Source: Kiritimatiellia bacterium (GTDB lineage: Bacteria; Verrucomicrobiota; Kiritimatiellia; RFP12; UBA1067). Taken from it: a stretch of DNA of 51,022 nucleotides. The notes beneath the pieces are model-generated. The model saw only the letters and a list, made by a program, of their open reading frames with translations. It was not told the DNA's origin and did no database searches. The stretch spans positions 1-51,022 of the forward strand of contig JAGBTH010000068.1 in NCBI GenBank assembly GCA_017631385.1. The letters run 5' to 3'. Position numbers and translations under genes: made by a program. Of the stretch, positions 29,245-51,022 are shown piece after piece (position 1 is the first letter of the stretch; each line of letters begins with the position of its first letter).

Positions 29245-29262
29245 TCACCAACACACACACAA

Positions 29263-29336: not shown

Positions 29337-29349
29337 GGGGAAACTTAAT

Positions 29350-29441: not shown

Positions 29442-29456
29442 ATGCAAGTGGCGAAT

Positions 29457-29486
29457 ATGATACCAAAACTCCCCCCTAAAAGTCAA
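29457..29486 (-). promoter_or_regulatory. Promoter for tRNA-Ser, tRNA(CCU) and probably recN
   Basis: TTGACT-N18-TATCAT with TG extension. Confidence 0.7.
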
Positions 29487-29504
29487 TACCCCCGACTAAC
29501 TAGA

Positions 29505-34234: not shown

Positions 34235-34260
34235 AATTATATTATATCATAATAAAAATA

Positions 34261-36365: not shown

Positions 36366-36694
36366 TTCCGAATCTCCAAATAAACCTCAAGCCTCTTAGG
36401 AGCACCCGGTAAAAGTAGAAGAGTACGTTTTACGGCAGCGAGTTTAGAACGTAGCGTAAAAAGCGCAGGAGCGCTTTTTACGTAAAGAAAAAGCTTATTG
36501 CCTTCGCGGCGACCTGGCGTCGCTCCAAAATTAGGAAAAAGCTCATTCCATTTATCCTTTAAACAGTCGAAAAAAGAATCAGGAACATACGATAAATTCT
36601 TAATCGACGCTTCTACTGCAGAAGCAAATGAAGTGTGTAGCCCGCGCTTTTCAGGCTCAATCGGTCGCCAATTCACTCCATTTTCAAAAGCCAC
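36362..36694 (-). CDS. Small hypothetical protein, possibly DUF721/DciA-like
   Basis: Pattern W.ELF...ATP....NKLFLYVKSAP resembles DUF721; overlaps or abuts both neighbours. Confidence 0.55.
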   Translation of the reverse strand: MAFENGVNWRPIEPEKRGLHTSFASAVEASIKNLSYVPDSFFDCLKDKWNELFPNFGATPGRREGNKLFLYVKSAPALFTLRSKLAAVKRTLLLLPGAPKRLEVYLEIRK

Positions 36695-37837
36695 TTAATT
36701 TTCGCTCGCTTTCATCTGAAGCCAAGACTCAATAAACTGCTGAATATTACCATCCATAACGCCATTTACATCGCTCGTTTCAGTTTCGGTTCTTAGATCC
36801 TTGACCATAGTATAAGGACAGAAGACATAAGAGCGAATCTGACTACCCCAACCATTCTCAGACTTAGCGCCATAAAAACGATCCATCTCAGCCTTCTTCT
36901 GATCTTCATAATATTCATAAAGCTGAGCACGAAGCATGTTCATCGCCTTCTCTTTATTCATGTGCTGAGAGCGCTCCTTCTGACATGCCACCACTATACC
37001 AGTCGGCAAGTGAGTAAGACGAACGGCGGAGTCAGTCTTATTAACGTGCTGACCACCAGCACCACCGGCACGATAAGTATCAATGCGAAGATCTTCGTCT
37101 TTTATCTCAACGTCAATATCGTCATTAATTTCTGCGACGGTCTCCATCGAAGCGAATGATGTCTGGCGGCGCTTATTCGCGTCAAATGGCGAAATTCTAA
37201 CAAGACGATGAATGCCGCGTTCAGCCTTAAGCATACCGAACGCATAAGAGCCCTCGACGCGGAAGTAGACATCCTTATAGCCAGCTTCTTCACCAACCTG
37301 GACATCGTATTCTTCAACTTTCCAACCTTGACTCTCGGCATAGCGCTGATACATTCGATAAAGCATCGCGACCCAGTCACACGCTTCAGTGCCGCCTTGA
37401 CCAGCATGAAGCTTAACGAATACATTGCACTGGTCGAATTTACCGCCGAGCAAAGACTGCATTCTAAGCTTAGAGAAATACTGATCCGCTTTATCGCATT
37501 CACTAAGAGTATCTTTAAAAGCTATCTGCTGAGCCTCACCTTCTTCCATTTCGGCGAGCTCAAACATTACTTGGGCATCTTCAATCGTTTTTAAAAGAGA
37601 GTCGTAGGGAACAGTATAGGCTCTTTCAGCATTTGTCGCGGCAATAACTTCGCGAGCTTTATTCTGATTGTTCCAAAAGTCACCCTGGGCTTGAAGATCT
37701 TCAAGTTTAGCTAAGTTAGCCCTGCGCTCATCAATCTTAATATATGAGGCCATATCGTCAGAATTCTTTTTAAGCTCAGCAAGACGCTGACGAACTTCTT
37801 CAGACTCGATCAATTTAACTTTTACTTCTTCAGCCAT
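36695..37837 (-). CDS. prfB: Peptide chain release factor 2, encoded without a frameshift
   Basis: GGTEACDW, HRLVRISPFD (SPF), GGAGGQHVNKTDSAVR, WGSQIRSYV; single uninterrupted ORF. Confidence 0.97.
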   Translation of the reverse strand: MAEEVKVKLIESEEVRQRLAELKKNSDDMASYIKIDERRANLAKLEDLQAQGDFWNNQNKAREVIAATNAERAYTVPYDSLLKTIEDAQVMFELAEMEEGEAQQIAFKDTLSECDKADQYFSKLRMQSLLGGKFDQCNVFVKLHAGQGGTEACDWVAMLYRMYQRYAESQGWKVEEYDVQVGEEAGYKDVYFRVEGSYAFGMLKAERGIHRLVRISPFDANKRRQTSFASMETVAEINDDIDVEIKDEDLRIDTYRAGGAGGQHVNKTDSAVRLTHLPTGIVVACQKERSQHMNKEKAMNMLRAQLYEYYEDQKKAEMDRFYGAKSENGWGSQIRSYVFCPYTMVKDLRTETETSDVNGVMDGNIQQFIESWLQMKASEN

Positions 37838-37857
37838 AAAACACCTCTATTAATTAA

Positions 37858-37897
37858 AATAAAGAAATCGCCCCTACTAAGAGGCGATTTCTTTTAT
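37858..37897 (-). terminator. Intrinsic terminator after secDF
   Basis: AAAGAAATCGCC-loop-GGCGATTTCTTT (37861-37894). Confidence 0.85.
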
Positions 37898-37909
37898 ACA
37901 AAGTCTTAT

Positions 37910-40462
37910 TTACTTGACTTCTTTAACATCCTCATCATTAAACGAAGGACGCTTATTACGATACCACCACATCATCACGGGAGTTGCAATGAATACCGAC
38001 GAATAGGTACCTGCTATAATACCGAAGAGCATCGTAAGAGCGAAGTCGTAAATCGAACCATCGACAAAGATGAAGAGCACCGCGACAGTGAAGAACGTTG
38101 TCAAAGACGTAATGAAGGTACGACCAAGGCAAGAGTTAATCGCCGCGTTACAAACATCCTTCAAAGGTGTACGTGAATCGCGCTTGAGAATTTCGCGAAT
38201 ACGGTCAAATACAACGACTGTATCGTTAATTGAGTATCCGATAATCGTCAAGAGAGCCGTAACTACAATAAGCGAAACCTGACGACCACAGAGCGAGAAA
38301 AGACCAAGAGCGATAAACGCGTCGTGAGCGAGCGCAACAATACCACCGAGACCAAAGCCAAAACGGAATCTGAAACCGATGTAAATCAAAATCGCAATAA
38401 GCGAGAAGATTACAGCCTTAGTTCCAGACGATCTCAAATCGTTACCGACCGTAGGACCGATCTGATCGCAGCTCTTAAGCTCGAGCTCTAAGCCCTTGAG
38501 AGCTTCGGAGCTATCGATAAGCTTCTTAATCTGAGATTCGGTATCACCCTTATCAACACCAGTCTTAATAGAGAGAATGCTGCCATTATCACCAGTCTGA
38601 ATGAGCGCGGCATTGTCGAACGAATTAATCGCCTTGCGAATCTCACCGACATTAGCCTCACCCGCCTTAACATCATAAACGATAGAAGTACCACCAGTTA
38701 AATCTACAGCAAGCACGCTCGTAGGCTTAGTAAATACTCTATAGGTAAACAAGCCAAGCGTAGCAACGATAATAACAGCCGAAATAATTACGCACTTCTT
38801 ACCTAACGATACAAAGTCAAAATTAGGATTCTTAAAGAATTGAACCATCTTAAAGGGCTTAGTGCGGTTAGGATCGGTCGTGTGATCGAAAACAAGACGC
38901 GTAACAACAATAGCGGTAAACATCGAAATAACGACACCGCCCGTAAGCATAATAGCGAAACCACGAACAGGACCCGTACCGACAACATAAAGGATAATAC
39001 CAGTTAAGATCGTCGTAATATTAGAGTCGACGATCGCAGTGAAAGCCTTAGCATAACCAGCGCTGACGGCCTTACCCGCAGTAGCACCACGAGCAAACTC
39101 CTCGCGAATGCGTTCGTAAATAAGAACGTTAGCGTCGACAGCCATACCGAGAGTAAGAACGAGACCAGCAATACCAGGCATCGTCAATACAGGAAGCTGG
39201 AACTGACCAGTAGCGCCCTCAACATTATCAACGAAAACACCGAGGAGGCTCGCTACTAAGAAAAGCGATACGGGCAAGAGGAATACATCGAGGAAGAGCG
39301 CGATATTCGCAACAAAACCAGCACCCCAATAATAAAACACCATAAATATCGCTACGAGAAGGAATCCGATCGACGCGGCGTAAATACCAGAGTTAATCGC
39401 ATCTGTACCAACGGTAGCAGCAACCTCAGATGTAGCAGCTATCTTAAGAGGAGCTGGAAGAGCGCCGATATTAAGGTCATTAGCGAGCGTCATAGCCTCT
39501 TCTAAGCTAAAATTACCGGTAATCTGACCATTAGCACCAATAGCATCGTTAATGACAGGTGAAGAAATCAACTCACCATCAAGAATAATCGCAAGCTGAC
39601 GACCAATATTGTTACCAGTAAGCTTACGGAACTTAGCTGGCAAGCCATCCTTATCCTTCAACTTAAAATCAATAACATATCCGCCAGCGAGATTATCCGA
39701 AGATACCGCTCTAGCAGAATCAAGATCCTCACCTTTAAGGCGAATCTTCTTCTCTACGAAGCGACCGATATATTTAGCGTTTTTACGGCCATTGGCATCA
39801 ATAACAAAGGGATTACTCTCATCACGCTGGAAGATAAACTTAACATCGCGCTGAATCGAGCGATCCTTAATACCGAACTTAGCCAATTCAGCTAAATAAT
39901 TGGCGTTAGTAGAAACAGTTAAAAAATCAGCAGCTTTAACAAAGCCACCGTCAACGCGTCTATAGCCCTTAGGAGCTGATTCATTAAGCTCAAGATCATT
40001 TAAAAGATCTCTTTCGCGCATATAAACAAAGCGGAATTCAAGAGACGACATTTCGCTAAGACGCTCACGAGCCGCGTCAGAAGCCTCCTTCCTAGCGCCG
40101 GGCAACTCAACGATAAATCTAGGAGATTCGTCATTCTTAACAGGCTGAATAACAGGCTCGTTAGTACCCATAGCATCAACACGACGACGAATAATCTCAA
40201 CAATACGATCCTCGCTATCGTTAAGAACCTCAGCCTCACGCTTATTAAGCTCTTCAGCGCTGAGATTAGGCGACTCATCGAGAAGATTCGCTTTTAAACG
40301 GTCTCTATCGACCTCAAGCGTAAAACGAGTACCACCAGCGAGATCAAGGCCTAAGCGAACCTTCTCCTTAGGAGGCATTACAAGATAAACCGAACCTACA
40401 GCTAGAATAAGCAGCACAAGCCACTTCCAGATGTTCTTAATAAACAAGGATTCCTTTGACAT
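37910..40462 (-). CDS. secDF: Fused protein translocase subunit SecDF
   Basis: LGLDLAGG, LAIILDG, GMAVDANVLIYERIREE, VDLTGG, GYSINDTVVVFDRIRE, GTYSSVFIATP. Confidence 0.97.
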   Translation of the reverse strand: MSKESLFIKNIWKWLVLLILAVGSVYLVMPPKEKVRLGLDLAGGTRFTLEVDRDRLKANLLDESPNLSAEELNKREAEVLNDSEDRIVEIIRRRVDAMGTNEPVIQPVKNDESPRFIVELPGARKEASDAARERLSEMSSLEFRFVYMRERDLLNDLELNESAPKGYRRVDGGFVKAADFLTVSTNANYLAELAKFGIKDRSIQRDVKFIFQRDESNPFVIDANGRKNAKYIGRFVEKKIRLKGEDLDSARAVSSDNLAGGYVIDFKLKDKDGLPAKFRKLTGNNIGRQLAIILDGELISSPVINDAIGANGQITGNFSLEEAMTLANDLNIGALPAPLKIAATSEVAATVGTDAINSGIYAASIGFLLVAIFMVFYYWGAGFVANIALFLDVFLLPVSLFLVASLLGVFVDNVEGATGQFQLPVLTMPGIAGLVLTLGMAVDANVLIYERIREEFARGATAGKAVSAGYAKAFTAIVDSNITTILTGIILYVVGTGPVRGFAIMLTGGVVISMFTAIVVTRLVFDHTTDPNRTKPFKMVQFFKNPNFDFVSLGKKCVIISAVIIVATLGLFTYRVFTKPTSVLAVDLTGGTSIVYDVKAGEANVGEIRKAINSFDNAALIQTGDNGSILSIKTGVDKGDTESQIKKLIDSSEALKGLELELKSCDQIGPTVGNDLRSSGTKAVIFSLIAILIYIGFRFRFGFGLGGIVALAHDAFIALGLFSLCGRQVSLIVVTALLTIIGYSINDTVVVFDRIREILKRDSRTPLKDVCNAAINSCLGRTFITSLTTFFTVAVLFIFVDGSIYDFALTMLFGIIAGTYSSVFIATPVMMWWYRNKRPSFNDEDVKEVK

Positions 40463-40713: not shown

Positions 40714-41970
40714 TTACTCTGCCTTAAACTCTATCGTCATCACGTTACCACTAATACTTTCATTAATTATGATAAATTTCCCTTCCGATGGTCGTGATCC
40801 GTTAGTCAAAGCGACATTCTTATCCCGAACAAGCGTTTTAATATTTCTGCGAATCCAAGCTGAAGCTTCTGACGACTGACCTTCGACAAAACGCACCGAC
40901 ATAGTTCCTATTCTATTATGCGAATTATATTCCAAAGAAATAGGCTTTAAAGTTAATACAGCCGCACTACCGTTTAAACGAAGACCATCTCGTTTAAAGC
41001 CCGAAAACGACACCTGGAGCGATGCGATATCTGCCGAAGGGAACGCATCAACATAATCCTCTTTAAGAGATTTGGCAAAATCCTGCAAGACCTTCTGCCA
41101 CGCTTTCTTGAAATCCGCCGGATTCTTAACAAGCTCAAGTTCAAAAGCATATGAGAAATTGTTATTGGAATCGCGGTCAAGTCGGACAATATTGTGCTTA
41201 GGAGCCGTAGAAACATCCGCCGTCTTCTTCTTTAACATGGCATCTATCTTGCCGGAATCTTCCAATTCTTTTAATTTAACAGCAAGACCATAAGCGAGAG
41301 ATCTTTGCTCAAGCCCTGTGGAAAAATCAGGACCTTTAAAACTGCCAAGTGCAGCAGATCCATATGCCTCATGTCCATCACCCAAAACTCCTTTATTTTG
41401 ATTATATATTTCACTTACGAATGGATAAGTCATTGTCATAGTTTGAGTGTGTTGACTAAAAACACAGTGTCCTTCGACAGCAGGCGAATCGGTATGCCAC
41501 AACAATGGAGATGGGAATAAATGAGAAGTTGCACGATCACCAACATTCAAAATCTCAAAGGAAGCGTGTACATTCTCAATGCCTTCAATCTCAATTACAC
41601 ATTCATATATCGCTTCTTGTTTTTGTGTATGGGGAATTATCTGTAAACTAAATAGCGACAATAAAAACGATCCAAACTGTGATGTAGAATGAAAATCTCC
41701 ATTTTTTAATCTAGCACGAAGCACAATAGGAATACCACCTTCTACTCTGAATACATTTGGCTGATGCTCCGAAAGAAACTTCCAATTCGTTTCTATTGCC
41801 TGCGTACCTTCTCCTTGATAACCACAAACAAGACTATAACGTTGACGCGTTGAAATATTTGAGCCAAGATTTTTAACCTTCGCGACCGAAGAATCTCGTA
41901 CACTTTCTGTAATACATCCTGAAATACAAACAAGTACAAGAGGACTGATAATTTTAACTATGCTTTTCAT
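40714..41970 (-). CDS. Array lipoprotein type A (unknown family)
   Basis: Lipobox ISGC; QPNVF..GIP; hydrophobic hairpin; LAYGLAVKLKELEDSG; shared C-terminal domain ending IEFKAE. Confidence 0.85.
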   Translation of the reverse strand: MKSIVKIISPLVLVCISGCITESVRDSSVAKVKNLGSNISTRQRYSLVCGYQGEGTQAIETNWKFLSEHQPNVFRVEGGIPIVLRARLKNGDFHSTSQFGSFLLSLFSLQIIPHTQKQEAIYECVIEIEGIENVHASFEILNVGDRATSHLFPSPLLWHTDSPAVEGHCVFSQHTQTMTMTYPFVSEIYNQNKGVLGDGHEAYGSAALGSFKGPDFSTGLEQRSLAYGLAVKLKELEDSGKIDAMLKKKTADVSTAPKHNIVRLDRDSNNNFSYAFELELVKNPADFKKAWQKVLQDFAKSLKEDYVDAFPSADIASLQVSFSGFKRDGLRLNGSAAVLTLKPISLEYNSHNRIGTMSVRFVEGQSSEASAWIRRNIKTLVRDKNVALTNGSRPSEGKFIIINESISGNVMTIEFKAE

Positions 41971-41985
41971 CGTTAACTCCTTTAT

Positions 41986-43212
41986 TTATTCTATTGTAAA
42001 CGAAACTTCGAGGACACCATCCTTCATCTCTTCTCGTTCAGAGAAAAAGCGGCCCTCCTTCGGCACGGCATCACCCATGACTTCAATATTGCTCTTTCGG
42101 GCAAGGTCGCCAATATTGCGTCTGATCCATCGCCGTACATCTTCAAACTGTCCGTTTTGAACACGGACACGGATAATGCCTTTTCTTGTGCGGGAATCAT
42201 ACGAAAGAGATTCGGGAGAAATCGAGAGAACTGCCACGCGACCACTTACAGTTCCTGCTTTCAATGTATAATCCGTAAAATCAATCTCTAATGTACGAGG
42301 ATTAATGTCAGGATGCAACGAAGCGTAATGTGTTCTTATAGCAGAGCGGAAAACGCTGCGAACAACACTGTAATCTGCAAATGTTATGCCTTCACCACCT
42401 TTTCGCCGCAACGCAAACACATACGAAAAATCCTTCCCCTGTTCGGCTTCACATCGTGTGATCTCAAACGGCGACCCTTGTTTATTCTTATCTACCGAGA
42501 CCTGAACGCCACGACGTGCGGCATCATCATCAATAATCTTCTGGACCGTCGCCAAGATATCAGTCATCGCTATCCCCACTCGCGCCTTTGCCACAAGATT
42601 TTGATTGATCAACCCCAACTGTTCAGCCTCCTTGAGTTTAACTGCTATTCCGTATGCCGATGCCTTTTCATGCAACTCCACAATTTGCAAATAATGCAAA
42701 GAATTCATATCGTAATTGAATGAATAAAACTTGCCCGTAGATGGGAAACATGATTTCATATCACTAAAATGAACCATTCCGGCGAAAAGCGGAATTAGTG
42801 AAGAAGCCATATCATCGTAAACACAAACATCAAATGAGAAAATCTCTTTTGACTCAATAGAAACTGAAGTTCGCTGATGATAATGAGCAGTAGTGAAAGA
42901 AGGAAATACACCAATCGTCATAAGAGAAAACATCCTAGATAGTGATCCTGATTTCTTGTGATAAATTTTTTTATTCGTAATCACTATCGGTATGCCATCA
43001 TCCGAAAATACATCTGGCTGATATTCTTGCAATCTATCCCCCTGAGACCTTCCATACAAATCTTTTTCTTCCGAAACAACCCGATAACGGTACTTTGTCG
43101 AAACCTTTTCTCCATAATCTTGAACATTTGCCGATGCCGCCATACGCCCGTATCGGCACCCCACAAGCAGCGACATCACACTGACAACGAGAATGTATAA
43201 TTTTCTGGCCAT
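41986..43212 (-). CDS. Array lipoprotein type B (unknown family)
   Basis: Lipobox LVGC; YQPDVFSDDGIP; MTIGVFP; AYGIAVKLKEAE; ends VSFTIE. Confidence 0.85.
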   Translation of the reverse strand: MARKLYILVVSVMSLLVGCRYGRMAASANVQDYGEKVSTKYRYRVVSEEKDLYGRSQGDRLQEYQPDVFSDDGIPIVITNKKIYHKKSGSLSRMFSLMTIGVFPSFTTAHYHQRTSVSIESKEIFSFDVCVYDDMASSLIPLFAGMVHFSDMKSCFPSTGKFYSFNYDMNSLHYLQIVELHEKASAYGIAVKLKEAEQLGLINQNLVAKARVGIAMTDILATVQKIIDDDAARRGVQVSVDKNKQGSPFEITRCEAEQGKDFSYVFALRRKGGEGITFADYSVVRSVFRSAIRTHYASLHPDINPRTLEIDFTDYTLKAGTVSGRVAVLSISPESLSYDSRTRKGIIRVRVQNGQFEDVRRWIRRNIGDLARKSNIEVMGDAVPKEGRFFSEREEMKDGVLEVSFTIE

Positions 43213-43215
43213 TGC

Positions 43216-44394
43216 CTACTCCACTCTGAATGAAATTTCGAGCATTCCACCGTTCAACTTCTCGCCTTCGAGATAAAACACTGCGGACGGAGGTATGGTT
43301 TTCGCATCAAGCGCGATGTTTTTATCTCTTGCGATCGACTCGATGTTCTTTCTTGCATATTTCCTTGCATCTTCAAACTGATTTTCCCCAATCCTTATCC
43401 GCATAACGCCCCTTCGACGATGAGAATCGTATTCCAATGATGCAACGGAGAAGGTTAAAGCGACCGCGTTTCCTACCACCCTCCCGTTCTGCAAAGAGAA
43501 CTTCGGAAAATCAATGACAACCGATCTGGAAACATCAGGAAAGGATAATAGATAATCTTCACGAATCATTGCCCTTAAAATCTTTTTCAATTCCCGCGAT
43601 TCACGTACTGCAACACTGCCGCTGTCACGGCGTTTCAGAGCGAATGAATAACGGTAAGCGCAATCATCATTCTTCTCAAACTCTACAATCTCATATTTGT
43701 CACTCACCGAATTTTGAAACGTCTCATTTCTATCTGCATGCTTATTATTCGCCTCTGCAATCAAACCGTTATCTTCCATCTTTTTCAACAATGCCGCGAT
43801 AGCGTATGCCTTCAATTCTATTCCTTCATCACGAGAGAAGCTATCACCAGCTCCAATCTCTTGAATAAAGCTATACTCCTTCAATTCTTTTGGAGCAGAT
43901 GCATTGCCTCTATAGAACAAATATGATATCGGAGTGTTAGCAATCGCATGTCGCCGCTGCCAATACTCATCATACTCTATATGTGCATCTGGATTATTCT
44001 GAACTTCTATAGTATTACGGCATGACCTTTCACCACCGCCAAAGCCGGGAATCGTACAAAGAGTAAAAGCCGATAAAGGAGCATAGTCAAAGCGATCTCT
44101 TTTAAGCTCCTTCCATTTAAGCACAAAAGGGACACCATCATCCGAAAAAACACCTGGCTGAAATCGCTTTAAATTTTCATTCGTAAACTGCAATTCATAC
44201 GTACTACCAGACATCACATCCACATTGGCCGTTTCTGCTTTGTGCTTCGCGTCAACCAATGTATAACGATTACGAGTAGTAATCGGCTTTATTCCTCCCT
44301 CGACAGAAACAAAATAAGCCCTACGCTCATGCACGCATCCAGCAATGCAAGATAAGAAAACAGAAAAAAGAATAAAAGCAGAAAAAGGCTTCAT
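43216..44394 (-). CDS. Array lipoprotein type C (unknown family)
   Basis: Start moved to ATG at 44394; lipobox IAGC; FQPGVFSDDGVP; FTLCTIP; AYAIAALLKKME; ends ISFRVE. Confidence 0.85.
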   Translation of the reverse strand: MKPFSAFILFSVFLSCIAGCVHERRAYFVSVEGGIKPITTRNRYTLVDAKHKAETANVDVMSGSTYELQFTNENLKRFQPGVFSDDGVPFVLKWKELKRDRFDYAPLSAFTLCTIPGFGGGERSCRNTIEVQNNPDAHIEYDEYWQRRHAIANTPISYLFYRGNASAPKELKEYSFIQEIGAGDSFSRDEGIELKAYAIAALLKKMEDNGLIAEANNKHADRNETFQNSVSDKYEIVEFEKNDDCAYRYSFALKRRDSGSVAVRESRELKKILRAMIREDYLLSFPDVSRSVVIDFPKFSLQNGRVVGNAVALTFSVASLEYDSHRRRGVMRIRIGENQFEDARKYARKNIESIARDKNIALDAKTIPPSAVFYLEGEKLNGGMLEISFRVE

Positions 44395-44460
44395 TATAGT
44401 TTTATCTTTCTTTGGATACCTTTTCACACAACCTTACCAGTTTTTAAATTATAGACAGCA
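44394..44460 (-). pseudogene. Remnant of the 3' end of the LpoB-like gene
   Basis: Reads AVYNLKTGKVV*KGIQRKIKL* versus AVYNLKTGKVVWEGIQRKINL* at 48176-48242. Confidence 0.88.
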
Positions 44461-44479
44461 TTGCGAAACTCTCTCTTTA

Positions 44480-45730
44480 TCATTCTGCCTTAAACTCTAT
44501 CGTCATCACATTACCATTAATTTTTTCATTAATTATGATAAACTTCCCTTCCAATGGTCGTGATCCGTTAGTTAAAGCGACATTCTTATCTCGAACAAGC
44601 GTTTTAATATTTCTGCGAATCCAAACTGAAGCTTCTGACGACTGACCTTTGACAAAACGCACCGACATAGTTCCTATTCTATTATGCGAATTATATTCAA
44701 AAGAAATAGGCTTTAAAGTTAATACTGCCGCACTACCACTTAAACGGAGCCCATCTCGTTTAAAACCAGAGAACAACACTTCGAGAGATGCGATATCTGC
44801 CGAAGGGAACGCATCAATATAATCCTCTTTAAGCGATTTTGCAAATTCTTGCAAGACACCTCGGAATGCATTCTTTAAATCTACAGGATTTTCAGCAAGC
44901 TCTAATTCGAAGGAGTATGAAAAACTCTTATTGGTATCACGATCAAGACGAATAATGCTGTGCTTAGGAGCAGTTGATATATCCGCAGCCTTCTTTTTTA
45001 ACATGGCATCTATCTTACCAGAATCTTCTAGCTCCTTTAGCTTAACAGCAATACCATAGGCTAAAGCACGCTGGGTCAAACCACTTTGAACGATATGACG
45101 CGGAGCATGCATTGAGATTAAACTTGCTGATACATTCTCTCCTAATACACCTTGATTCTCCCGATATAATTCATTTCCATTATATGCAACATAAAATGTA
45201 TTCTGACAAAAAGCACGGTATCCATCTATCGAAGAAGTTCCTCTAGAAACTAACAAAGATGTTGGGACAAAATAAGTTCTAGCCCCAGAGGAGAAACTAC
45301 CAACTGTAAACGAGTGAATATCATCTGCAACACCATCAAACTCAAATGCACATTGATGTTTATGTCCACTACTACCGACTCCTATCGGAGGAATCATGGC
45401 CGCACTGCAAAGTTGAAAAATCCAATTAAAAATACCCACCCACGATCCCCCGATTCCTCCACAACCAAAATGTCGCACACGAAGCGAAATGGGTATGCCA
45501 TCCCTTGAAAAAACTTTAGGTTGATAATTTGCAAAAACGTTACCATCAAAATCAATATTTTCTGACGATTCACCTTCATACGCACACGTAACGCGATATT
45601 TATGACGCGTTGACACTTCTGGGCCTATATCTGGCACCATAGCAATTGCGCTTTCTCTGATATGTTCATTCACACACCCTGTAATAGCTACAAATACGGG
45701 GATAATTATTATCTTATATACAGCATTCAT
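44480..45730 (-). CDS. Array lipoprotein type A' (paralog of 40714..41970)
   Basis: Lipobox ITGC; C-terminal ~190 aa very similar to A; divergent N-terminal half. Confidence 0.85.
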   Translation of the reverse strand: MNAVYKIIIIPVFVAITGCVNEHIRESAIAMVPDIGPEVSTRHKYRVTCAYEGESSENIDFDGNVFANYQPKVFSRDGIPISLRVRHFGCGGIGGSWVGIFNWIFQLCSAAMIPPIGVGSSGHKHQCAFEFDGVADDIHSFTVGSFSSGARTYFVPTSLLVSRGTSSIDGYRAFCQNTFYVAYNGNELYRENQGVLGENVSASLISMHAPRHIVQSGLTQRALAYGIAVKLKELEDSGKIDAMLKKKAADISTAPKHSIIRLDRDTNKSFSYSFELELAENPVDLKNAFRGVLQEFAKSLKEDYIDAFPSADIASLEVLFSGFKRDGLRLSGSAAVLTLKPISFEYNSHNRIGTMSVRFVKGQSSEASVWIRRNIKTLVRDKNVALTNGSRPLEGKFIIINEKINGNVMTIEFKAE

Positions 45731-45743
45731 TATTATTCCTTAA

Positions 45744-46976
45744 TTATTCTATTGAAAATAAAACTTCAAGAACACCATCCCTCATCTCTTCGCGTTCCGA
45801 GAAGAAGCGACCATTCTTCGGGATGGCATCACCTACAACATCAACATTGCTCTTTCGAGCGAGATCTCCGAGATTACATCTAATCCATCGACGAGCAGCT
45901 TCCAACTGACCATCTCTGATTCGCACACGAATAGCACCTTTTCTAGTACGAGAATCATACGATAGCGATTCTGAAGAAATCGAGAGAACTATTACGCGCC
46001 CACTCACAATCCCTGCCTTCAACGAATAATCTGTAAAATCAATTTCTAAAGTTCGAGGATTGATATCAGGATGTAGCGAAGAATAATGCGTTCTAATAGC
46101 AGAGCGAAAAACACTACGTACGACACTGAAATCAGAAAAAGTTATTGCGCCGCCCCCTTTACGCCGCAATGAAAAAGCATAAGAAAAATCCTTTCCTTGA
46201 TCTGGCTCACATCTAATGATCTCAAATGGAGACTCTTGATTACTCTTATCTGCCGAAACTGAAACTCCACGCCGTGCGGCGTCATCATCAATTATTTTCT
46301 GCACTGTCGATAAAATATCTGTCATCGCAACTCCTACTCGGGCTTTCGCTACAAGATTTCCATCAATTAGACCAGATTCTTCAGCTTCTTTAAGTTTACT
46401 TGCTATTCCATAAGCTAAAACCTCTTTATATATATCATTCACAGCAATACTTTTAGATTCCAAATTATAAGAAACACTAAAATCCTTACTCTTAGAAAAA
46501 CACGATTCGCCATTATCACAAAGAACTAAAATACGAGAAACAATCGGCATAAAAGACCACCACTCTTTTTTAGTTATACAAACTTGTGCCGAGGTTATTT
46601 CCTTTGCCCCAATTGAAATCGTCTGGCTCTTATGAGAGTGTACGGTCTCAGAATATGGAAATAGATTATATGTACACACCGAAATCAAACCAAGCAAACT
46701 ATCAGGGCCTCCCGACTTCTTACGTAAAACCGTTTTATTAGTAATCACTATCGGTACGCCATCATTAGAAAATACATTAGGCTGATACGATTGTAGCTTT
46801 TCCCCCAAAGTATCTCCATAGTAATCTTTTTCTTCAAAGACAATTTTATAACGATATTTCGTTGAAACTTTATCTCCTAAATCTTGAACATTCGCAGAGG
46901 CTACAATTCGACCAGAGATACACCCTGCTAACATTGCCGTTATACTAAAAAAAACAAAAAATATTTTTATTTTCAT
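45744..46976 (-). CDS. Array lipoprotein type B' (paralog of 41986..43212)
   Basis: Lipobox LAGC; shares ASANVQD.G.KVSTKYRY and the C-terminal half with B. Confidence 0.85.
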   Translation of the reverse strand: MKIKIFFVFFSITAMLAGCISGRIVASANVQDLGDKVSTKYRYKIVFEEKDYYGDTLGEKLQSYQPNVFSNDGVPIVITNKTVLRKKSGGPDSLLGLISVCTYNLFPYSETVHSHKSQTISIGAKEITSAQVCITKKEWWSFMPIVSRILVLCDNGESCFSKSKDFSVSYNLESKSIAVNDIYKEVLAYGIASKLKEAEESGLIDGNLVAKARVGVAMTDILSTVQKIIDDDAARRGVSVSADKSNQESPFEIIRCEPDQGKDFSYAFSLRRKGGGAITFSDFSVVRSVFRSAIRTHYSSLHPDINPRTLEIDFTDYSLKAGIVSGRVIVLSISSESLSYDSRTRKGAIRVRIRDGQLEAARRWIRCNLGDLARKSNVDVVGDAIPKNGRFFSEREEMRDGVLEVLFSIE

Positions 46977-46979
46977 AAT

Positions 46980-48176
46980 TTATTCTACCCTAAATAAAAT
47001 TTCGAGAGTACTACCATCTAACTTTTCTCCCTCAAGATAATATACTGCCGTTGGAGGTATTTTATTCGCCTCAAGCGCAATATTTTTATCTCGTGCGAGA
47101 AATGCTATATTTTTTCTCACATATTTTCTAGCATCTTCAAACTGATTTTCGCCAATACTTACGCGCATTAATCCGGCACGCTTATGAGGATCATACTCCA
47201 AAGATACAACCGAAAACGTCAACGCAACAGCCTCACCAGCGACTGTACCATTTTGGAATGAGAATTTAGAGAAATCAATAACTACTGAATGTGATACATC
47301 AGGAAATGAAGCAAGATAATCATCACGAATCATCGCCCTTAAAATCTTTTTCAATTCACGAGATTCTCGCACCGTAATACTATTACCATCACGACGCTTC
47401 AAATTAAATGCATATCGGTAATTACAGTCTTGTTTCTTATTAAAATCAATAATATCATATCTTTCACTCACTGAGTTTTGAAGAACTTCATTCCGATCTG
47501 CGTATTTATTATTTGATTCTAAAATTAAACCCTCATCTTCCATTTTTTTCAATAGTGCTGCTATAGCATAAGCCTTCAATTCTATTCCACTATCAATCTT
47601 ATAGCTACCCCCGCTCTCATATTCTTGAACACGACTATATTTAGCCAATCCTTTAGGAACTGAAGCGTCCCCCCGATAAAACAAATATGATATCGGCGTA
47701 TTCGCGATAACCGATCGATATTGACAATACTCGTCATACTCAGTACGCGCATCTGGATTGCCAATCACCTCTATTAAATTACGCCACGAACTTTCACCAC
47801 CTCCAATAATCGGAATTGTAACAAATGTTATTGCAGAAAGAAAATTATAAGCAATATCAAAATCATTATATGACTGACTTCTTTTAATTCCCGAACTCCT
47901 AAGTACAAATGGAATACCATCGCTAGAAAAAACATTTGGCTGAAATCGCTTTAAACTTTCATTTGTAAATTGTAATTTATATGTACTACCCGACATTACA
48001 TCTACATTAGCTGTTTCAGCCTTGTGCTTCGCGTCAACCAATGTATAGCGATTACGAGTAACTACTGGCTTTATTCCGCCTTCAACTGAGACGAAATGAG
48101 CTACTCGCTTATGCTCACAGCCCAAAATACACAAACTAACGAAGAATAATCGGAAGAAGGCTAAAAATATCTTCAT
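46980..48176 (-). CDS. Array lipoprotein type C' (paralog of 43216..44394)
   Basis: Start moved to ATG at 48176 (TAATG overlap with upstream stop); lipobox ILGC; TRNRYTLVDAKHKAETANVDVMSGSTY identical to C. Confidence 0.85.
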   Translation of the reverse strand: MKIFLAFFRLFFVSLCILGCEHKRVAHFVSVEGGIKPVVTRNRYTLVDAKHKAETANVDVMSGSTYKLQFTNESLKRFQPNVFSSDGIPFVLRSSGIKRSQSYNDFDIAYNFLSAITFVTIPIIGGGESSWRNLIEVIGNPDARTEYDEYCQYRSVIANTPISYLFYRGDASVPKGLAKYSRVQEYESGGSYKIDSGIELKAYAIAALLKKMEDEGLILESNNKYADRNEVLQNSVSERYDIIDFNKKQDCNYRYAFNLKRRDGNSITVRESRELKKILRAMIRDDYLASFPDVSHSVVIDFSKFSFQNGTVAGEAVALTFSVVSLEYDPHKRAGLMRVSIGENQFEDARKYVRKNIAFLARDKNIALEANKIPPTAVYYLEGEKLDGSTLEILFRVE

Positions 48177-48733
48177 TACAGATTGATCTTTCTTTGGATG
48201 CCTTCCCACACAACCTTACCTGTTTTTAAATTATAGACAGCAAGGCGTAGTTGATAAGTTAACTGTCCTTGGGAGATAAACGACTCGCGAATATCACCCG
48301 ACACTATAAAGTCAGGCGCATCATGGCCACCTACTGCATTCATTAATGCCGAGACGTTCTCGATGCCGCCATCAGCACCCCAGACAATCCGGGAGAGCAT
48401 CATATCCGCCGCGTTATCATCCTTAACCTCGAAAATACCAGTATCGAACAATGCCACTCGCACAAGATCATCCACAGCGCGACCCATCGAACGCACTTCG
48501 GCTCTAGGTGTTTTATTTGCTATCGGAGACTGACAAACAATCGGCATCGCACCTTTAGCCGTTTTAACTGCATTATAATTTTTAGTAAATTGAGGGTGTC
48601 GGCGCATATTCTCCATTAACATCTGAACCGAGGTTTCCAGATCGCACCTCTCAGAAGGCGGAGCTGAAACGCAACCGCCCAAGACATAACTCGCTACCAA
48701 CGCTGTAACCGTAATAATTATCTTATTTTTCAT
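48176..48733 (-). CDS. LpoB/CsgG-fold-like lipoprotein
   Basis: Start moved to ATG at 48733; lipobox LGGC; IANKT, APDFIVSGDI, YQLRLAVYNLKTGKVVW as in LpoB-like proteins. Confidence 0.7.
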   Translation of the reverse strand: MKNKIIITVTALVASYVLGGCVSAPPSERCDLETSVQMLMENMRRHPQFTKNYNAVKTAKGAMPIVCQSPIANKTPRAEVRSMGRAVDDLVRVALFDTGIFEVKDDNAADMMLSRIVWGADGGIENVSALMNAVGGHDAPDFIVSGDIRESFISQGQLTYQLRLAVYNLKTGKVVWEGIQRKINL

Positions 48734-48743
48734 ATTTTTCTCC

Positions 48744-50180
48744 TTAATATTCGAATTTTGTATTATCATCTGAAATAAACTTCTCTAACGCAGAAAACTG
48801 CTTTATTATACTATCGGCGATATCAGAATCAGCTCGTTTAGCTATCTCTAATGTTTTTCTTATATAGGGTAAAATTGGTCGGCACAACATCTTCCGAATC
48901 TTAATTATTTTGTCCGAAGAAATATCTTTATCCTTAAGAGACTGCAATGCATTTTCTAACGCCAAGGTTTTATCATTTAATTTCCTTATTGATTTCTCAT
49001 ACTTAATTTGCCACTTTCTCCATCTCGTTTTTTTCTCGGCCTCAATAGCGTTACCTCGTGCAACAATCCCTCTTAATCCAGTCACTTGAGTATTCGCTCC
49101 TGATATATTTATTGGCGTTTCAGATAATTCTACACACTCCTCCAATGTGGAATTAAATTCTTTATAAGCTAAAATTATCTCCTGTACATATTGATCAAAT
49201 TGCGATAGATCTACGGCGTGCCCATTCACGCCAAAATTACCATCTTTACTGGATGCATTTTGTGCTGACTGTCTATTTTCTTTAGGGGGCACTATGTCAA
49301 TTGCATCAGATTCAACACAGACAAGCCCTTTATCTTTCCACATATCACTAAAAGTAGTTGGAAAATCCTCCACCTGCTTTTTCGTCATCCTCTTACCAGT
49401 CTGACCATCAACAATATAAAAACGCCCATCAGAATCCGATTCAAACAAAATTCCTGCGTATTTATATTGATTATTTTTTTCATGCGGAACAATATCGACT
49501 TCTCGATGAGAAGGATATTCAAAACAAAGTTGAACAATACGCCCAATCATTTCAGAGGGAAACCAACTCGGCAAAACACCTTTTCTTTTTATCTCTTCTG
49601 TAACCTCTTCTATGACCATTCCCAGCCATTTGTAATTATCTCCAAGATTTCTCGTCCCTAGTTTTTCATCCAATATTATTTTTCCATCCTTTTTATCATA
49701 CACAACTTCATCTCCACTATGTGTTGTATATTTAAAAACTTTTCCTCCAATCAATTTCACTATATCATTTACGATTCCTACACCTTCACCTCCAGGAGAA
49801 ATCTTCACCCAGTCATCAATAATATTTGAAGGTTCGTGATAAAGATCCCAAGAATACTCCTCCCAATTATTTAAATAGCCCTTCTCTTTTCCTAACTTCA
49901 TTTCTTCCAACGTAGCAGGCTTAAGAGCCGCTATATCACGGCCTAAATGTTTTGTTAGCTCAAATGGAAATTTGCCACACACCAAAACAGAAATAGCTTT
50001 TAGGTCCTCCCACGAGCCAGACCAAATCTCTGGAGAATCATTTTCCGTACATCTTGACATAAGTGGACCATTATGAATATATCCACTATCTTTGTTCGAA
50101 ACGGGGCAATACCGAGATTCTGAATACACAATATGTGTAGCAAACAACACACCGAGAATTAAAACGATTTTGTTTTTCAT
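48744..50180 (-). CDS. Secreted hypothetical protein with a possible polymorphic-toxin-like central domain and a helical C-terminus
   Basis: Signal peptide MKNKIVLILGVLFATHIVYS; YH...K...G.EVVYD..G...GT.N...H..DI.P motif; overlaps the upstream stop. Confidence 0.7.
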   Translation of the reverse strand: MKNKIVLILGVLFATHIVYSESRYCPVSNKDSGYIHNGPLMSRCTENDSPEIWSGSWEDLKAISVLVCGKFPFELTKHLGRDIAALKPATLEEMKLGKEKGYLNNWEEYSWDLYHEPSNIIDDWVKISPGGEGVGIVNDIVKLIGGKVFKYTTHSGDEVVYDKKDGKIILDEKLGTRNLGDNYKWLGMVIEEVTEEIKRKGVLPSWFPSEMIGRIVQLCFEYPSHREVDIVPHEKNNQYKYAGILFESDSDGRFYIVDGQTGKRMTKKQVEDFPTTFSDMWKDKGLVCVESDAIDIVPPKENRQSAQNASSKDGNFGVNGHAVDLSQFDQYVQEIILAYKEFNSTLEECVELSETPINISGANTQVTGLRGIVARGNAIEAEKKTRWRKWQIKYEKSIRKLNDKTLALENALQSLKDKDISSDKIIKIRKMLCRPILPYIRKTLEIAKRADSDIADSIIKQFSALEKFISDDNTKFEY

Positions 50181-51022
50181 TTCGCAACCCCTTTCCTCTC
50201 AAATCTTACGTTGCATCGCGCGTCGTCGGAAATAGAAAATTCCACTATCTCAAACTTTTCAAAGGAGACGTTTAATCCGTCTTTTTTCGCTTGCTTCTTT
50301 ACAAGCTCTTCAAAATTATCCCGAATGTATTTATTAGCACTCTTAAATGAGCCGCTTAAAATTTCAACGATCAATACACCCGTTTCAGCTTTTTCATCGT
50401 ATTCAAGCGCGACGACTCTCACGCGCACAGGCTCGACTATCAGACGAAACACCTCATTCGTAACAACAGCTCCGACAAGCGGCGTAACCGGCTCCATCGC
50501 AGGGACAGATGGCACCTCTTCTACCACAGATGTTGGTATCGTTATTCTTTTTCTTTCCGTCTTTTTACTTTCTACGGTCTTTTCGCTTGAAGAACTTATT
50601 TGCCGCGCCCTCCGACCTTTCTGCATCCGCCGACGCACACGCGAATAGGAGAATCCTGTTTCTTCCGCCAATGACACATCCCGGTCGATACTGACACCTT
50701 CTTTCACGGCGCCCTTAATGACCGTAAAAGCATTGGGGACAGCCATCGTCACGCGTTGGCGACGACTTCCCGTCACAATACCGTTACCGACCTGCGCCGC
50801 GAAATCCGCCGCGCGGAATTCTTTCCTGTGGTCTGATGCATTGAGTATTCTTGCCGAAAAAGCAAGTCCGCCCTCGCAAACGACATCAGAGAACAAATCT
50901 TCCTCCATCGCACCGTAACGCCAAGTGTTGGAGCTTCTTATTGTTGATTCACTTCCCATTTCTGTAAGCGTTTCTATATGAGAACTGACGAGTCTTATAG
51001 CATTTGTACCTCTCAACTCCGA
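50177..51022 (-). CDS. Hypothetical protein (5'-partial) ending in the array's shared C-terminal domain
   Basis: Frame is open to the window edge; C-terminus VVALEYDEKAETGVLIVEILSGSFKSANKYIRDNFEELV...VRFE resembles the array C-termini. Confidence 0.75.
   Translation of the reverse strand, partial: SELRGTNAIRLVSSHIETLTEMGSESTIRSSNTWRYGAMEEDLFSDVVCEGGLAFSARILNASDHRKEFRAADFAAQVGNGIVTGSRRQRVTMAVPNAFTVIKGAVKEGVSIDRDVSLAEETGFSYSRVRRRMQKGRRARQISSSSEKTVESKKTERKRITIPTSVVEEVPSVPAMEPVTPLVGAVVTNEVFRLIVEPVRVRVVALEYDEKAETGVLIVEILSGSFKSANKYIRDNFEELVKKQAKKDGLNVSFEKFEIVEFSISDDARCNVRFERKGVAK

What the first reader, a model, noticed from the sequence alone, without database searches (positions are those of the whole stretch)
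40714..51022. Unrecognised multi-lipoprotein system: six paralogous lipoproteins with variable N-terminal halves, co-encoded with an LpoB/CsgG-like lipoprotein and a secreted protein
Seen: nine tightly spaced, co-directional genes. In transcription order they are a partial ORF, a 478-aa secreted protein, an LpoB-like lipoprotein, then C'-B'-A'-C-B-A. All six ~400-aa proteins share a lipobox (xxGC), a TxxRY motif, a QPxVF(S)xxG(I/V)P motif, a hydrophobic segment ending in (I/F)P (FSLQIIP, MTIGVFP, FTLCTIP), an AY(G/A)(I/L)AxxLKxxExxG helix and two C-terminal alpha/beta domains ending F-x-x-E. Within each pair the C-terminal half is conserved, while roughly residues 90-220 diverge strongly. I recognise no named family. 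Inference: a hetero-oligomeric outer-membrane or surface complex with a diversifying membrane-associated module (adhesin, pore or receptor), or an immunity-type array paired with the upstream secreted protein.
Basis: partly seen in the sequence, partly recalled or inferred. Interest (0 to 1): 0.82.

Follow-up and report, generated by a model that had tools for sequence, protein, structure and literature searches.

The report
Modular lipoprotein family beside LpoB-like gene
Six neighbouring lipoprotein genes of an uncultured gut bacterium are a duplicated trio from an unnamed protein family that shares one tail domain and usually sits next to an LpoB-like cell-envelope gene; what the family does is unknown.

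Summary
Nine co-directional, tightly packed minus-strand genes run: partial ORF, 478-aa secreted protein, LpoB-like lipoprotein, then C'-B'-A'-C-B-A. The six ~400-aa lipoproteins are three old paralogue types in a ~3.77-kb unit duplicated in tandem. A related strain in an independent DNA run carries only one unit.

None of the six matches Pfam, NCBIfam, PADLOC, PHROGs or any solved structure by sequence. An AlphaFold2 model of B (pLDDT 86) shows:
- an alpha/beta N-domain, only weakly like CsgG or LptE;
- a helical hairpin;
- a ~170-aa C-terminal domain (CTD).

The CTD defines an unnamed family of 484 clusters at 50% identity. In the listed matches it always lies at the protein's end, and it is fused to varied N-terminal modules: this N-domain, LysM, thioredoxin-like and Sel1. 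In 16 of 23 loci its genes lie beside an LpoB-like lipoprotein and/or a PEGA-domain protein. Named relatives are Kiritimatiellae MAGs.

My best reading (confidence 0.4) is that these are accessory envelope lipoproteins docked through the CTD onto an LpoB-like/PEGA scaffold. Binding and location are inferred, not shown. A pore, a surface-antigen role and an immunity array remain open but are less supported. This is a new family-level finding of moderate interest.

The parts
50177..51022 (-). 3' part (281 codons) of a gene cut by the contig end. It encodes a diverged copy of the family's C-terminal domain. Full-length homologues are 498-509 aa and carry a non-lipoprotein signal-like N-terminus.
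   Evidence: CTD profile 6.3e-38. Homologues are L069:793-2322 and L086:295-1791, both preceded by a PEGA-protein gene.
48744..50180 (-). 478-aa protein with a signal-peptide-like N-terminus. Its ~300-aa N-terminal region is conserved across the family, and the C-terminal tail is a helical bundle that varies across the family.
   Evidence: No Pfam, NCBIfam, PADLOC or PHROGs match. AlphaFold2 pLDDT is 61.5. Foldseek gives nothing below E 0.3.
48176..48769 (-). 197-aa LpoB-like lipoprotein, a diverged paralogue type. Its stop region overlaps the start of C'.
   Evidence: PF13036 at 38.1 bits. TIGR02722 at 40.4 bits, below its cut-off of 110.55. A profile of its relatives hits solved LpoB chains 2mii and 4q6l at E 1e-6 to 4e-5.
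46980..48209 (-). C' lipoprotein (409 aa): signal and lipobox, variable N-domain, helix, CTD.
45744..46976 (-). B' lipoprotein (410 aa).
44480..45730 (-). A' lipoprotein (416 aa).
44375..44465 (.). Boundary of the duplicated unit. This stretch is 84% identical to 48157-48247. The part upstream of C's start (about 44428-44465) therefore matches the 3' end of the LpoB-like gene, so the duplication carried a remnant of that gene.
   Evidence: repeat family D6.
43216..44427 (-). C lipoprotein (403 aa).
41986..43212 (-). B lipoprotein (408 aa), the copy that was modelled. N-domain residues 19-166, helical hairpin 173-233, CTD 249-408.
   Evidence: pLDDT 86.3, pTM 0.75.
40714..41970 (-). A lipoprotein (418 aa), the last gene of the cluster. 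A SecDF gene follows after about 250 nt.

Best explanation
The locus is the downstream part of an operon in an uncultured gut bacterium. Its closest named relatives are Kiritimatiellae MAGs. The operon is an accessory branch of an LpoB-type envelope lipoprotein cluster.

The six ~400-aa genes are three old paralogue types (C, B, A) in a ~3.77-kb unit that was duplicated in tandem. The copy number differs between strains. Each protein has four parts:
- a lipoprotein signal;
- a ~150-aa alpha/beta N-domain whose middle evolves fast;
- a helical hairpin;
- an unnamed ~170-aa C-terminal domain (CTD).

The CTD is the constant module of a wider family that carries many different N-terminal modules. 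Its genes usually sit beside an LpoB-like lipoprotein and a PEGA-domain protein.

I infer that the CTD is a docking domain. It would tether variable, periplasm-facing modules to an LpoB-like/PEGA scaffold under the outer membrane, close to peptidoglycan. I also infer that A, B and C act together as non-redundant subunits.

Shown: gene order, paralogy, the duplication, the domain layout, the range of the family, and the neighbourhood link. Inferred: the binding, the cellular location and the role.
For: Family range. A CTD profile finds 484 representative clusters at E<=1e-3 (193 at E<=1e-30) among 1.84 billion proteins. In all 150 listed rows the match ends within 9 residues of the protein's end.

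Modularity. Of the 143 best new representatives, 81 carry the same N-domain and 62 do not. Among those 62, Pfam finds LysM in 2, thioredoxin-like in 1 and lipocalin-like in 1. Sel1 repeats, and LysM plus a lipocalin-like domain, occur in locus proteins. LysM and thioredoxin-like modules fit a periplasmic, peptidoglycan-facing place; this step rests on general knowledge of those domains.

Neighbourhood. In 16 of 23 loci, an LpoB-like gene and/or a PEGA-protein gene lies in the same fetched stretch as the CTD gene(s) (PEGA is PF08308). Among the 18 CTD-bearing genomes of the genus, 10 have the LpoB-like match on the same contig within about 6 kb.

Same order elsewhere. G016 has LpoB-like, PEGA protein, a 461-aa relative of the 478-aa protein, LpoB-like, C, B, A. 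L086 has PEGA protein, a homologue of the partial ORF, then a relative of the 478-aa protein.

Fusions. The N-terminal part of the PEGA protein is fused to an LpoB-like domain in L059:3204-4493 and L067:4351-5445. This links those two partners.

Old paralogue types. A, B and C form separate clades, each holding both window copies and the G016 copy, with support 99-100.

Copy-number variation. A DNA contig of run X5 joins 41299 to 45473, which gives a single unit. A contig of run X2 bridges the junction between the two units at 44279-44698.

Constraint. dN/dS is 0.05-0.23 in the C-terminal half and 0.23-0.70 in residues 90-205.
Against: - No binding was measured or predicted.
- The PEGA gene is not seen in the window's genome. 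That genome is 74% complete and the contig ends inside the cluster.
- In 7 of 23 loci, no LpoB-like or PEGA gene lies in the visible flank. One of these (L062) had 17 kb fetched.
- Several features are more typical of surface or conflict genes than of a housekeeping scaffold: fast evolution of the N-domain, lower G+C (0.36-0.40 against 0.43-0.46 in most of the window), patchy occurrence (18 of 117 genomes of the genus; 3 of 301 in a draw from the class), and strain-level copy-number change.
- The role of LpoB-like proteins outside Gammaproteobacteria is not established.
- The loci come from related genomes, so the counts are not independent.
Confidence: 0.4

Rival explanations
1. The proteins are surface-exposed, rapidly diversifying lipoproteins: adhesins, nutrient or glycan binders, antigenic variants, or phage-receptor decoys. 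The conserved CTD would serve export or anchoring, and the LpoB-like/PEGA proteins would be the platform.
For: - The middle of the N-domain is hypervariable (16-33% identity between A/A' and B/B') while the C-terminal half is 70-100% identical.
- dN/dS is higher there, at 0.23-0.70.
- G+C is lower than in most of the window.
- Occurrence is patchy.
- Copy number differs between strains.
- The organism lives in animal guts, according to the records of the runs that hold it.
Against: - dN/dS stays below 1 and dS is near saturation, so positive selection is not shown.
- Family members carry LysM and thioredoxin-like modules, which usually act in the periplasm.
- No known surface-export signal or translocon was recognised.
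- No related gene was found on viral contigs.
Confidence: 0.2
2. The six lipoproteins are an immunity array against the upstream 478-aa secreted protein, read as a polymorphic toxin with a conserved N-terminal part and swappable C-terminal tails.
For: - Across 29 aligned relatives, the 478-aa family has a conserved ~300-aa N-terminal region and very different C-terminal tails.
- Tandem arrays of diverging paralogues downstream of a secreted protein resemble toxin-immunity loci. This resemblance is recalled, not tested.
Against: - The 478-aa family was found in 2 of 117 genomes of the genus, against 18 of 117 for the CTD. Most CTD arrays therefore lack it.
- The gene directly after it is the conserved LpoB-like gene (78% identical in G016), not a variable one.
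- L087 has two tandem genes of the 478-aa family with no CTD or LpoB-like neighbour.
- No toxin domain was found by Pfam, NCBIfam, PADLOC or Foldseek.
- A, B and C are conserved as three lineages rather than turning over.
Confidence: 0.1
3. The N-domains form a CsgG-like or PelC-like oligomeric ring or pore in the outer membrane, built from A, B and C. This would be a secretion channel for the 478-aa protein or for a polymer.
For: - The best Foldseek matches of the B model are CsgG in its pre-pore form (E 0.011), LptE chains (E 0.018-0.07, target TM 0.41-0.50), PelC and TraT. All of these are outer-membrane lipoproteins, and several form rings.
- A CsgG-named phage protein appears again in the viral library at E 0.022.
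- The model has long paired strands at residues 105-119 and 122-138.
Against: - All matches lie above E 0.001, and query TM is 0.11-0.21.
- No Pfam match at E<=1 to CsgG, LptE or any related family, and none at E<=0.1 in any of the 56 family members.
- A profile-profile comparison with the LpoB-like family aligns only the signal peptides.
- The putative hairpin region is the least conserved part of the protein.
- No segment looks like a membrane span.
Confidence: 0.07

Closest known systems
LpoB, the outer-membrane lipoprotein activator of PBP1B (Pfam PF13036; solved chains 2mii, 4q6l)
   Same: The 197-aa protein passes the Pfam cut-off. A profile of its relatives hits solved LpoB chains at E 1e-6 to 4e-5. 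It has a lipobox. Canonical copies in the same genus score 123.5 bits and lie beside a DUF1425 (YcfL-family) lipoprotein gene. This gene pairing is also known in Escherichia coli (recalled).
   Different: - The window's copy is a diverged paralogue: 38 bits, far below the NCBIfam equivalog cut-off.
- Only about 10 residues lie between the lipid-bearing Cys and the start of the domain match. The long linker of E. coli LpoB is recalled, not tested here.
- No UB2H domain (PF14814) above its cut-off was found in 5 genomes of the genus.
- The six paralogues themselves are not LpoB-like by profile comparison.
Outer-membrane lipoproteins with the CsgG / LptE / PelC / TraT type of alpha/beta fold
   Same: They are lipoproteins of similar domain size, and they are the best, though weak, structural matches of the N-domain.
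   Different: - There is no sequence-family match.
- TM scores are below or at the edge of what counts as the same fold.
- These known families lack the helical hairpin and the CTD.
- No LptD-like or curli genes were seen in the cluster.
Paralogous lipoprotein families that share one conserved domain and vary the rest (for example Slam-dependent surface lipoproteins; recalled, not tested)
   Same: A conserved C-terminal module is joined to variable N-terminal modules. The genes form tandem arrays and diversify quickly.
   Different: No sequence or fold relation was found to any of them. The CTD here is a ~170-aa alpha/beta domain, not a beta-barrel. The partner genes are LpoB-like and PEGA, not a Slam-type translocon.
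Polymorphic toxin-immunity loci
   Same: A secreted protein with variable C-terminal tails is followed by an array of related small-to-medium genes.
   Different: The array occurs mostly without the secreted protein. No toxin domain was recognised. The adjacent gene is conserved rather than co-varying.

Membership tests
LpoB (PF13036 / TIGR02722), for the 197-aa protein | Match to the Pfam family above its gathering score | tested here: met
   38.1 bits against a cut-off of 22.3, residues 43-191. The same match was found in the genome search.
LpoB (PF13036 / TIGR02722), for the 197-aa protein | Match to the NCBIfam equivalog model above its cut-off | tested here: not met
   40.4 bits against a cut-off of 110.55.
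LpoB (PF13036 / TIGR02722), for the 197-aa protein | A cognate PBP1B with a UB2H docking domain in the same genome (this feature is recalled from the E. coli system) | tested here: inconclusive
   PF14814 was above its cut-off in 0 of 5 genomes. Three sub-threshold matches (17-19 bits) lie in open frames of 1031-1073 aa.
CsgG curli channel, for the six paralogues | Sequence match to the family | tested here: not met
   No Pfam match at E<=1 for the six proteins, and none at E<=0.1 in 56 family members.
CsgG curli channel, for the six paralogues | Same fold | tested here: inconclusive
   Foldseek E 0.011, TM 0.21 (query) and 0.33 (target), rmsd 9 A. The VIA-align libraries were not available.
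CsgG curli channel, for the six paralogues | Oligomeric ring with transmembrane hairpins | not testable with these tools
   No multimer model of the paralogues was made. No hydrophobic span is present.
LptE, for the six paralogues | Sequence match, or the same fold | tested here: inconclusive
   No Pfam match. Foldseek E 0.018-0.07 with target TM 0.41-0.50.
Polymorphic toxin with an immunity array | Array genes occur together with the toxin gene | tested here: not met
   The 478-aa family is in 2 of 117 genomes of the genus, the CTD family in 18 of 117.
Polymorphic toxin with an immunity array | A recognisable toxin domain in the variable C-terminal part | tested here: not met
   No match in Pfam, NCBIfam, PADLOC, PHROGs or solved structures. 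The model is of low confidence.
Anti-phage defence system or phage gene | Match to PADLOC or PHROGs models, or presence on viral contigs | tested here: not met
   0 of 9 proteins match. No relative was found on viral contigs.

The most novel reading that the evidence does not exclude
A, B and C, together with the LpoB-like and PEGA proteins, build a previously unseen hetero-oligomeric outer-membrane lipoprotein machine in PVC-group bacteria. Its conserved C-terminal domains would form the assembly core. Its fast-evolving CsgG/LptE-like modules would form an exchangeable pore or surface-display face, possibly handling the co-encoded 478-aa secreted protein. The invariant F-x-x-E at the very C-terminus would be the assembly or recognition signal.
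Probability: 0.1. Interest if true: 0.8.

Novelty: new variant of a known kind. Interest (0 to 1): 0.45.

Why it matters
The finding defines an unnamed protein domain family with hundreds of sequence clusters. It also reveals a recurrent gene partnership (LpoB-like lipoprotein, PEGA-domain protein, CTD lipoproteins) in gut Kiritimatiellae, a group with few cultured members and an almost unstudied cell envelope. If the CTD is a docking module, the family would show how one envelope scaffold recruits interchangeable periplasmic functions. It would also give a handle on what LpoB-type proteins do outside Gammaproteobacteria. The hypervariable N-domain and the strain-level copy-number change make the locus a candidate marker of strain-level adaptation in ruminant guts. 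As it stands, this is a family-level discovery without a known function.

Tried and rejected
- Complex prediction of the LpoB-like domain (residues 34-197) with the CTD of B, each with its own alignment, gave no verdict (score 0.00, mark 0.32). It counts neither for nor against binding.
- The AlphaFold2 model of the 478-aa protein was poor (pLDDT 61.5). Its Foldseek search gave only generic helical bundles at E>=0.3.
- Foldseek of the B model against viral structures gave nothing below E 0.014.
- The protein atlas gave only unnamed lipoprotein clusters at score 0.87, and weak leads at 0.81-0.83 (DUF8095, DUF4410, a neuraminyllactose-binding hemagglutinin family), for the whole protein. It gave nothing for the CTD alone.
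- Profile searches of solved structures found nothing for the whole family, for the CTD (best E 0.71) or for the 478-aa family (best E 0.84).
- The promoter and terminator scans found no more sites than shuffled sequence.
- RNA-library contigs (runs X18 and X19, one study) cover parts of the cluster at 90-99% likeness. One of them spans the A'/B' boundary (45624-46166). The tool warns that DNA can be present in such libraries and that contigs cannot show transcription, so I treat this as a hint only.
- Parts of the stretch without RNA cover say nothing.
- I considered a diversity-generating retroelement as the source of the variable region and did not test it. The divergence there (identity down to 16%, with gaps) is far beyond adenine-only changes.
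- Literature searches found no description of this system. The searches were 'PEGA domain'+'LpoB' (0 papers), 'PEGA domain'+'lipoprotein' (9 listed, none on this), 'LpoB-like' (1, unrelated), 'YcfL'+'LpoB' (7, all enterobacterial or unrelated by title and abstract), 'Kiritimatiellota'+'lipoproteins' (0) and 'Kiritimatiellae'+'lipoprotein' (24 hold the terms, 10 listed, those on blood lipoproteins or unrelated by title and abstract). Of one preprint (10.1101/2020.04.01.020958) I read a single passage, which only lists PEGA among the domains of DGR targets.

Full report
WHAT IS THERE

The window is a whole 51,022-base contig (C69) of a genome bin of 2.02 Mb in 183 contigs, 74% complete. On the minus strand between 51022 and 40714, one search lists nine ORFs:
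- 50177-51022, a frame open at the contig end (281 codons);
- 48744-50180, a 478-aa protein with a signal-peptide-like start;
- 48176-48769, a 197-aa lipoprotein;
- six ORFs of 403-418 aa at 46980-48209 (C'), 45744-46976 (B'), 44480-45730 (A'), 43216-44427 (C), 41986-43212 (B) and 40714-41970 (A).

Neighbouring ORFs overlap by up to 34 nt or are at most 52 nt apart. The next genes downstream are ordinary housekeeping genes: a fused SecDF, a peptide chain release factor, a solute-binding protein, a RecD2-type helicase, BamA and LpxD. G+C in the cluster is 0.36-0.40, against 0.43-0.46 in most of the window.

Identities are 58% (A/A'), about 64% (B/B') and about 71% (C/C'). Between the three types identity is 26-28%.

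For A/A', identity is 16-30% over residues 91-207 and 86-100% over residues 295-418. For B/B' it is 30-33% against 70-93%. C/C' is milder.

Direct repeats spaced 3758-3782 nt apart show a tandem duplication of a C-B-A unit. The stretch just upstream of C's start (about 44428-44465, within repeat 44375-44465) is 84% identical to the 3' end of the LpoB-like gene (within 48157-48247), so the duplicated unit began inside that gene.

An independent DNA run (X5) holds a 3,987-nt contig that joins 41299 to 45473. That strain therefore has a single unit, with a hybrid A gene. A contig of run X2 bridges the junction between the two units at 44279-44698 with 2 differences. The array is real, and its copy number varies between strains.

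SIGNALS AND MEMBRANE SEGMENTS

No signal-peptide predictor was available. All six proteins have [IVL]-x-G-C after a hydrophobic stretch. A stricter pattern that I wrote from memory matched four of them, plus the LpoB-like protein.

NO NAMED FAMILY

None of the six proteins, nor the 478-aa protein, nor the partial ORF, matches:
- Pfam or NCBIfam at a meaningful level;
- PADLOC or PHROGs;
- any solved structure by profile search.

Scanning 56 family members one by one against Pfam gave nothing consistent. The 197-aa protein matches PF13036 (LpoB) at 38.1 bits, above the cut-off. It stays far below the NCBIfam equivalog cut-off. A profile of its relatives hits solved LpoB chains at E 1e-6 to 4e-5.

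STRUCTURE

An AlphaFold2 model of B, built with 56 aligned relatives, has pLDDT 86.3 and pTM 0.75. It shows:
- an alpha/beta N-domain (strands 19-28, 74-88, 105-119, 122-138 and 161-166; helices 57-64, 90-98 and 141-147);
- a helical hairpin (173-198 and 204-233);
- a C-terminal region of two alpha/beta sub-domains (249-318 and 321-408).

Foldseek against the PDB gave no match below E 0.001. The best matches were CsgG in its pre-pore form (E 0.011; TM 0.21/0.33), LptE chains (E 0.018-0.07; target TM 0.41-0.50), PelC, TraT and HpaA. All of these are outer-membrane lipoproteins with a related alpha/beta fold, so the resemblance is a lead and not an assignment. A profile-profile comparison between the six-protein family and the LpoB-like family aligned only the signal peptides. 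The fast-evolving stretch (residues about 90-205) covers the helix and the long strand pair of the N-domain.

THE WIDER FAMILY

A word-indexed search with B found 66 unnamed proteins with no precomputed Pfam domain.

I built a profile of the last ~172 residues from 23 window and locus proteins (A3). Searched against 1.84 billion representatives, it found 484 clusters at E<=1e-3 and 193 at E<=1e-30. In all 150 listed rows the match ends within 9 residues of the protein's end, in proteins of 136-574 aa.

Of the 143 new representatives, 81 carry the same N-domain and 62 do not; some of those 62 are fragments. Among the 62, Pfam finds LysM in 2, thioredoxin-like domains in 1 and a lipocalin-like domain in 1. 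Locus proteins add LysM plus a lipocalin-like domain (485 aa) and Sel1 repeats (391 aa).

The C-terminal domain is therefore a module shared by lipoproteins with varied heads. The family ends in a nearly invariant F-x-x-E at the very C-terminus. I cannot explain this.

WHERE IT OCCURS

The five loci found in the named genome collection carry these record titles: Kiritimatiellae or Kiritimatiellia MAGs (3), 'uncultured Verrucomicrobia bacterium' (1) and an unnamed rumen-type bin (1). Three of the titles name gut sites of sheep and goat.

- In the window's genus, 18 of 117 genomes have the CTD (8 of the 32 good-quality ones).
- In an even draw from the class, 3 of 301 genomes have it, the window's own genome included.
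- No relative was found on viral contigs.
- The runs that hold the stretch are animal gut metagenomes by their records. Four runs of one study hold half or more of the sampled words.

NEIGHBOURHOOD

I mapped ORFs in 23 loci that hold a CTD gene. In 16 of them, an LpoB-like gene and/or a gene for a ~340-590-aa protein with a PEGA domain (PF08308) lies in the same stretch:
- both genes in 12 loci;
- PEGA only in 2 (L068, L069);
- LpoB-like only in 2 (L024 and the window, which ends there).

Seven loci (L060, L061, L062, L064, L070, L071, L075) show neither. Most of these are short contigs or CTD genes at a contig end, but L062 had 17 kb fetched. The loci come from related genomes and are not independent.

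The number of CTD genes per locus is 1, 2, 3, 5 or 6 (plus the diverged partial ORF here).

Two loci confirm the window's gene order. G016 has LpoB-like, PEGA protein, a 461-aa relative of the 478-aa protein (35% identical), LpoB-like (78%), C (68%), B (79%) and A (56-58%). A metagenome contig (L086) has the PEGA-protein end, a 498-aa homologue of the partial ORF, and a relative of the 478-aa protein. The window's operon therefore most likely starts with a PEGA-protein gene beyond the contig end. None was found elsewhere in this incomplete genome.

Two proteins fuse the N-terminal part of the PEGA protein to an LpoB-like domain (L059:3204-4493 and L067:4351-5445).

The LpoB-like family is more common than the CTD: 68 of 117 genomes of the genus have it. 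In genomes without the CTD, the cluster reads: 125-aa protein, PEGA protein, ~440-480-aa lipoprotein with a weak TPR signal, DUF1425 (YcfL-family) lipoprotein, canonical LpoB at 123.5 bits.

CTD genes thus occur in two settings. In some loci they lie upstream of this canonical cluster (for example L063, L065, L066, L074, L076). In others they lie directly after a diverged LpoB-like paralogue (the window, G016, L057, L058, L024, L067, L072).

RELATIONS AMONG THE SIX

A maximum-likelihood tree of 31 CTDs puts A, B and C in three separate clades, each with support 99-100. Each clade holds both window copies and the G016 copy; the A clade also holds a fourth row, from L060. Matches covering fewer than 140 profile positions were left out of that tree. 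The three types are old and have been kept side by side, which argues for different roles rather than redundancy.

dN/dS (Nei-Gojobori) is 0.05-0.23 in the C-terminal half and 0.23-0.70 in residues 90-205. dS is near or beyond saturation in most comparisons, so positive selection is neither shown nor excluded. For A/A', dS is lower in the C-terminal half (0.56) than in the N-terminal parts (1.3-1.5). This hints at gene conversion or a mosaic origin.

THE 478-AA PROTEIN

Its 32 relatives share a ~300-aa N-terminal region with invariant W, G, P, Y, D, K and T positions. Their C-terminal tails are quite different from one another: helical bundles in some, Cys-rich in others. The window's tail is nearly identical to that of the G016 protein, although the two N-terminal regions differ. 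This would fit a tail that docks to this particular cluster, but that is only an inference. The family was found in 2 of 117 genomes of the genus. In L087 it occurs as a tandem pair with no CTD or LpoB-like neighbour. Its model was poor, and no fold match emerged.

HOW IT MOST LIKELY WORKS

I commit to the following, at confidence 0.4. The CTD is a docking or assembly domain. Through it, lipid-anchored proteins with interchangeable heads are held on an LpoB-like/PEGA scaffold at the inner face of the outer membrane, close to peptidoglycan. In this organism the heads are three specialised, fast-evolving alpha/beta domains that act together.

The support is comparative: constant tail with variable head, a constant pair of neighbours, fusions between those neighbours, and heads such as LysM and thioredoxin-like domains that usually work in the periplasm. 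The binding itself, the location and any link to peptidoglycan synthesis are inferred. The one complex prediction I could run gave no verdict (see Tried and rejected).

Rivals:
- surface-exposed variable lipoproteins (0.2);
- an immunity array for the 478-aa protein (0.1);
- a CsgG-like ring or pore (0.07).

The remaining probability covers functions I have not thought of.

COMPARISON AND NOVELTY

- The 197-aa protein is a member of the Pfam LpoB family, but it is not shown to be a functional equivalent of E. coli LpoB.
- The six paralogues belong to no described family. The nearest known things are outer-membrane lipoproteins of the CsgG/LptE type (weak fold resemblance only) and, in concept, lipoprotein families with a shared C-terminal module.
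- Six literature searches found no description of the family or of the PEGA/LpoB-like partnership.
- I rate it a new variant of a known kind: an LpoB-type envelope cluster with a new modular partner family.
- Interest is moderate. It is a solid domain-family and gene-neighbourhood discovery in a little-studied phylum, with no function yet.

Noticed in passing
L081:4992-8810 (also L082 and L084): Genomes of the genus that lack the CTD family carry a conserved five-gene cluster: a 125-aa protein, a PEGA-domain protein, a ~440-480-aa lipoprotein with a weak TPR signal, a DUF1425 (YcfL-family) lipoprotein, and a canonical LpoB (123.5 bits).
   Followed up: partly
L059:3204-4493 and L067:4351-5445: Single open frames fuse the N-terminal region of the PEGA-protein family to an LpoB-like domain.
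   Followed up: partly
window 41299 / 45473: A contig of DNA run X5 joins these two places, skipping 4173 bases with 143 other letters in between. A related strain therefore has one C-B-A unit with a hybrid A gene.
   Followed up: partly
window 40714-41350 versus 44480-45100: For the A/A' pair, dS is 0.56 in the C-terminal half against 1.3-1.5 in the rest. This suggests gene conversion or a mosaic origin.
   Followed up: no
L087:3489-6488: Two tandem genes of the 478-aa protein family (345 and 587 aa) lie next to a Sel1-like gene on a metagenome contig, with no LpoB-like or CTD gene in the flanks.
   Followed up: no
G412:C73:7923-8138, G353:C1:38829-38954, G383:C32:11672-11803: Sub-threshold UB2H (PF14814) matches of 17-19 bits lie inside open frames of 1031-1073 aa. 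These may be class A penicillin-binding proteins.
   Followed up: no
window 22398-40462: Envelope and housekeeping genes lie directly downstream of the cluster: a fused SecDF (850 aa), a release factor, a family-5 solute-binding protein, a rhamnosidase-like glycosidase, a RecD2 helicase, an SMC/RecN-like ATPase, BamA (Omp85 with POTRA domains) and LpxD.
   Followed up: partly
C-terminus of all family members (for example window 40717-40728): The family ends in a nearly invariant F-x-x-E, with the glutamate as the last residue. No explanation was found.
   Followed up: no
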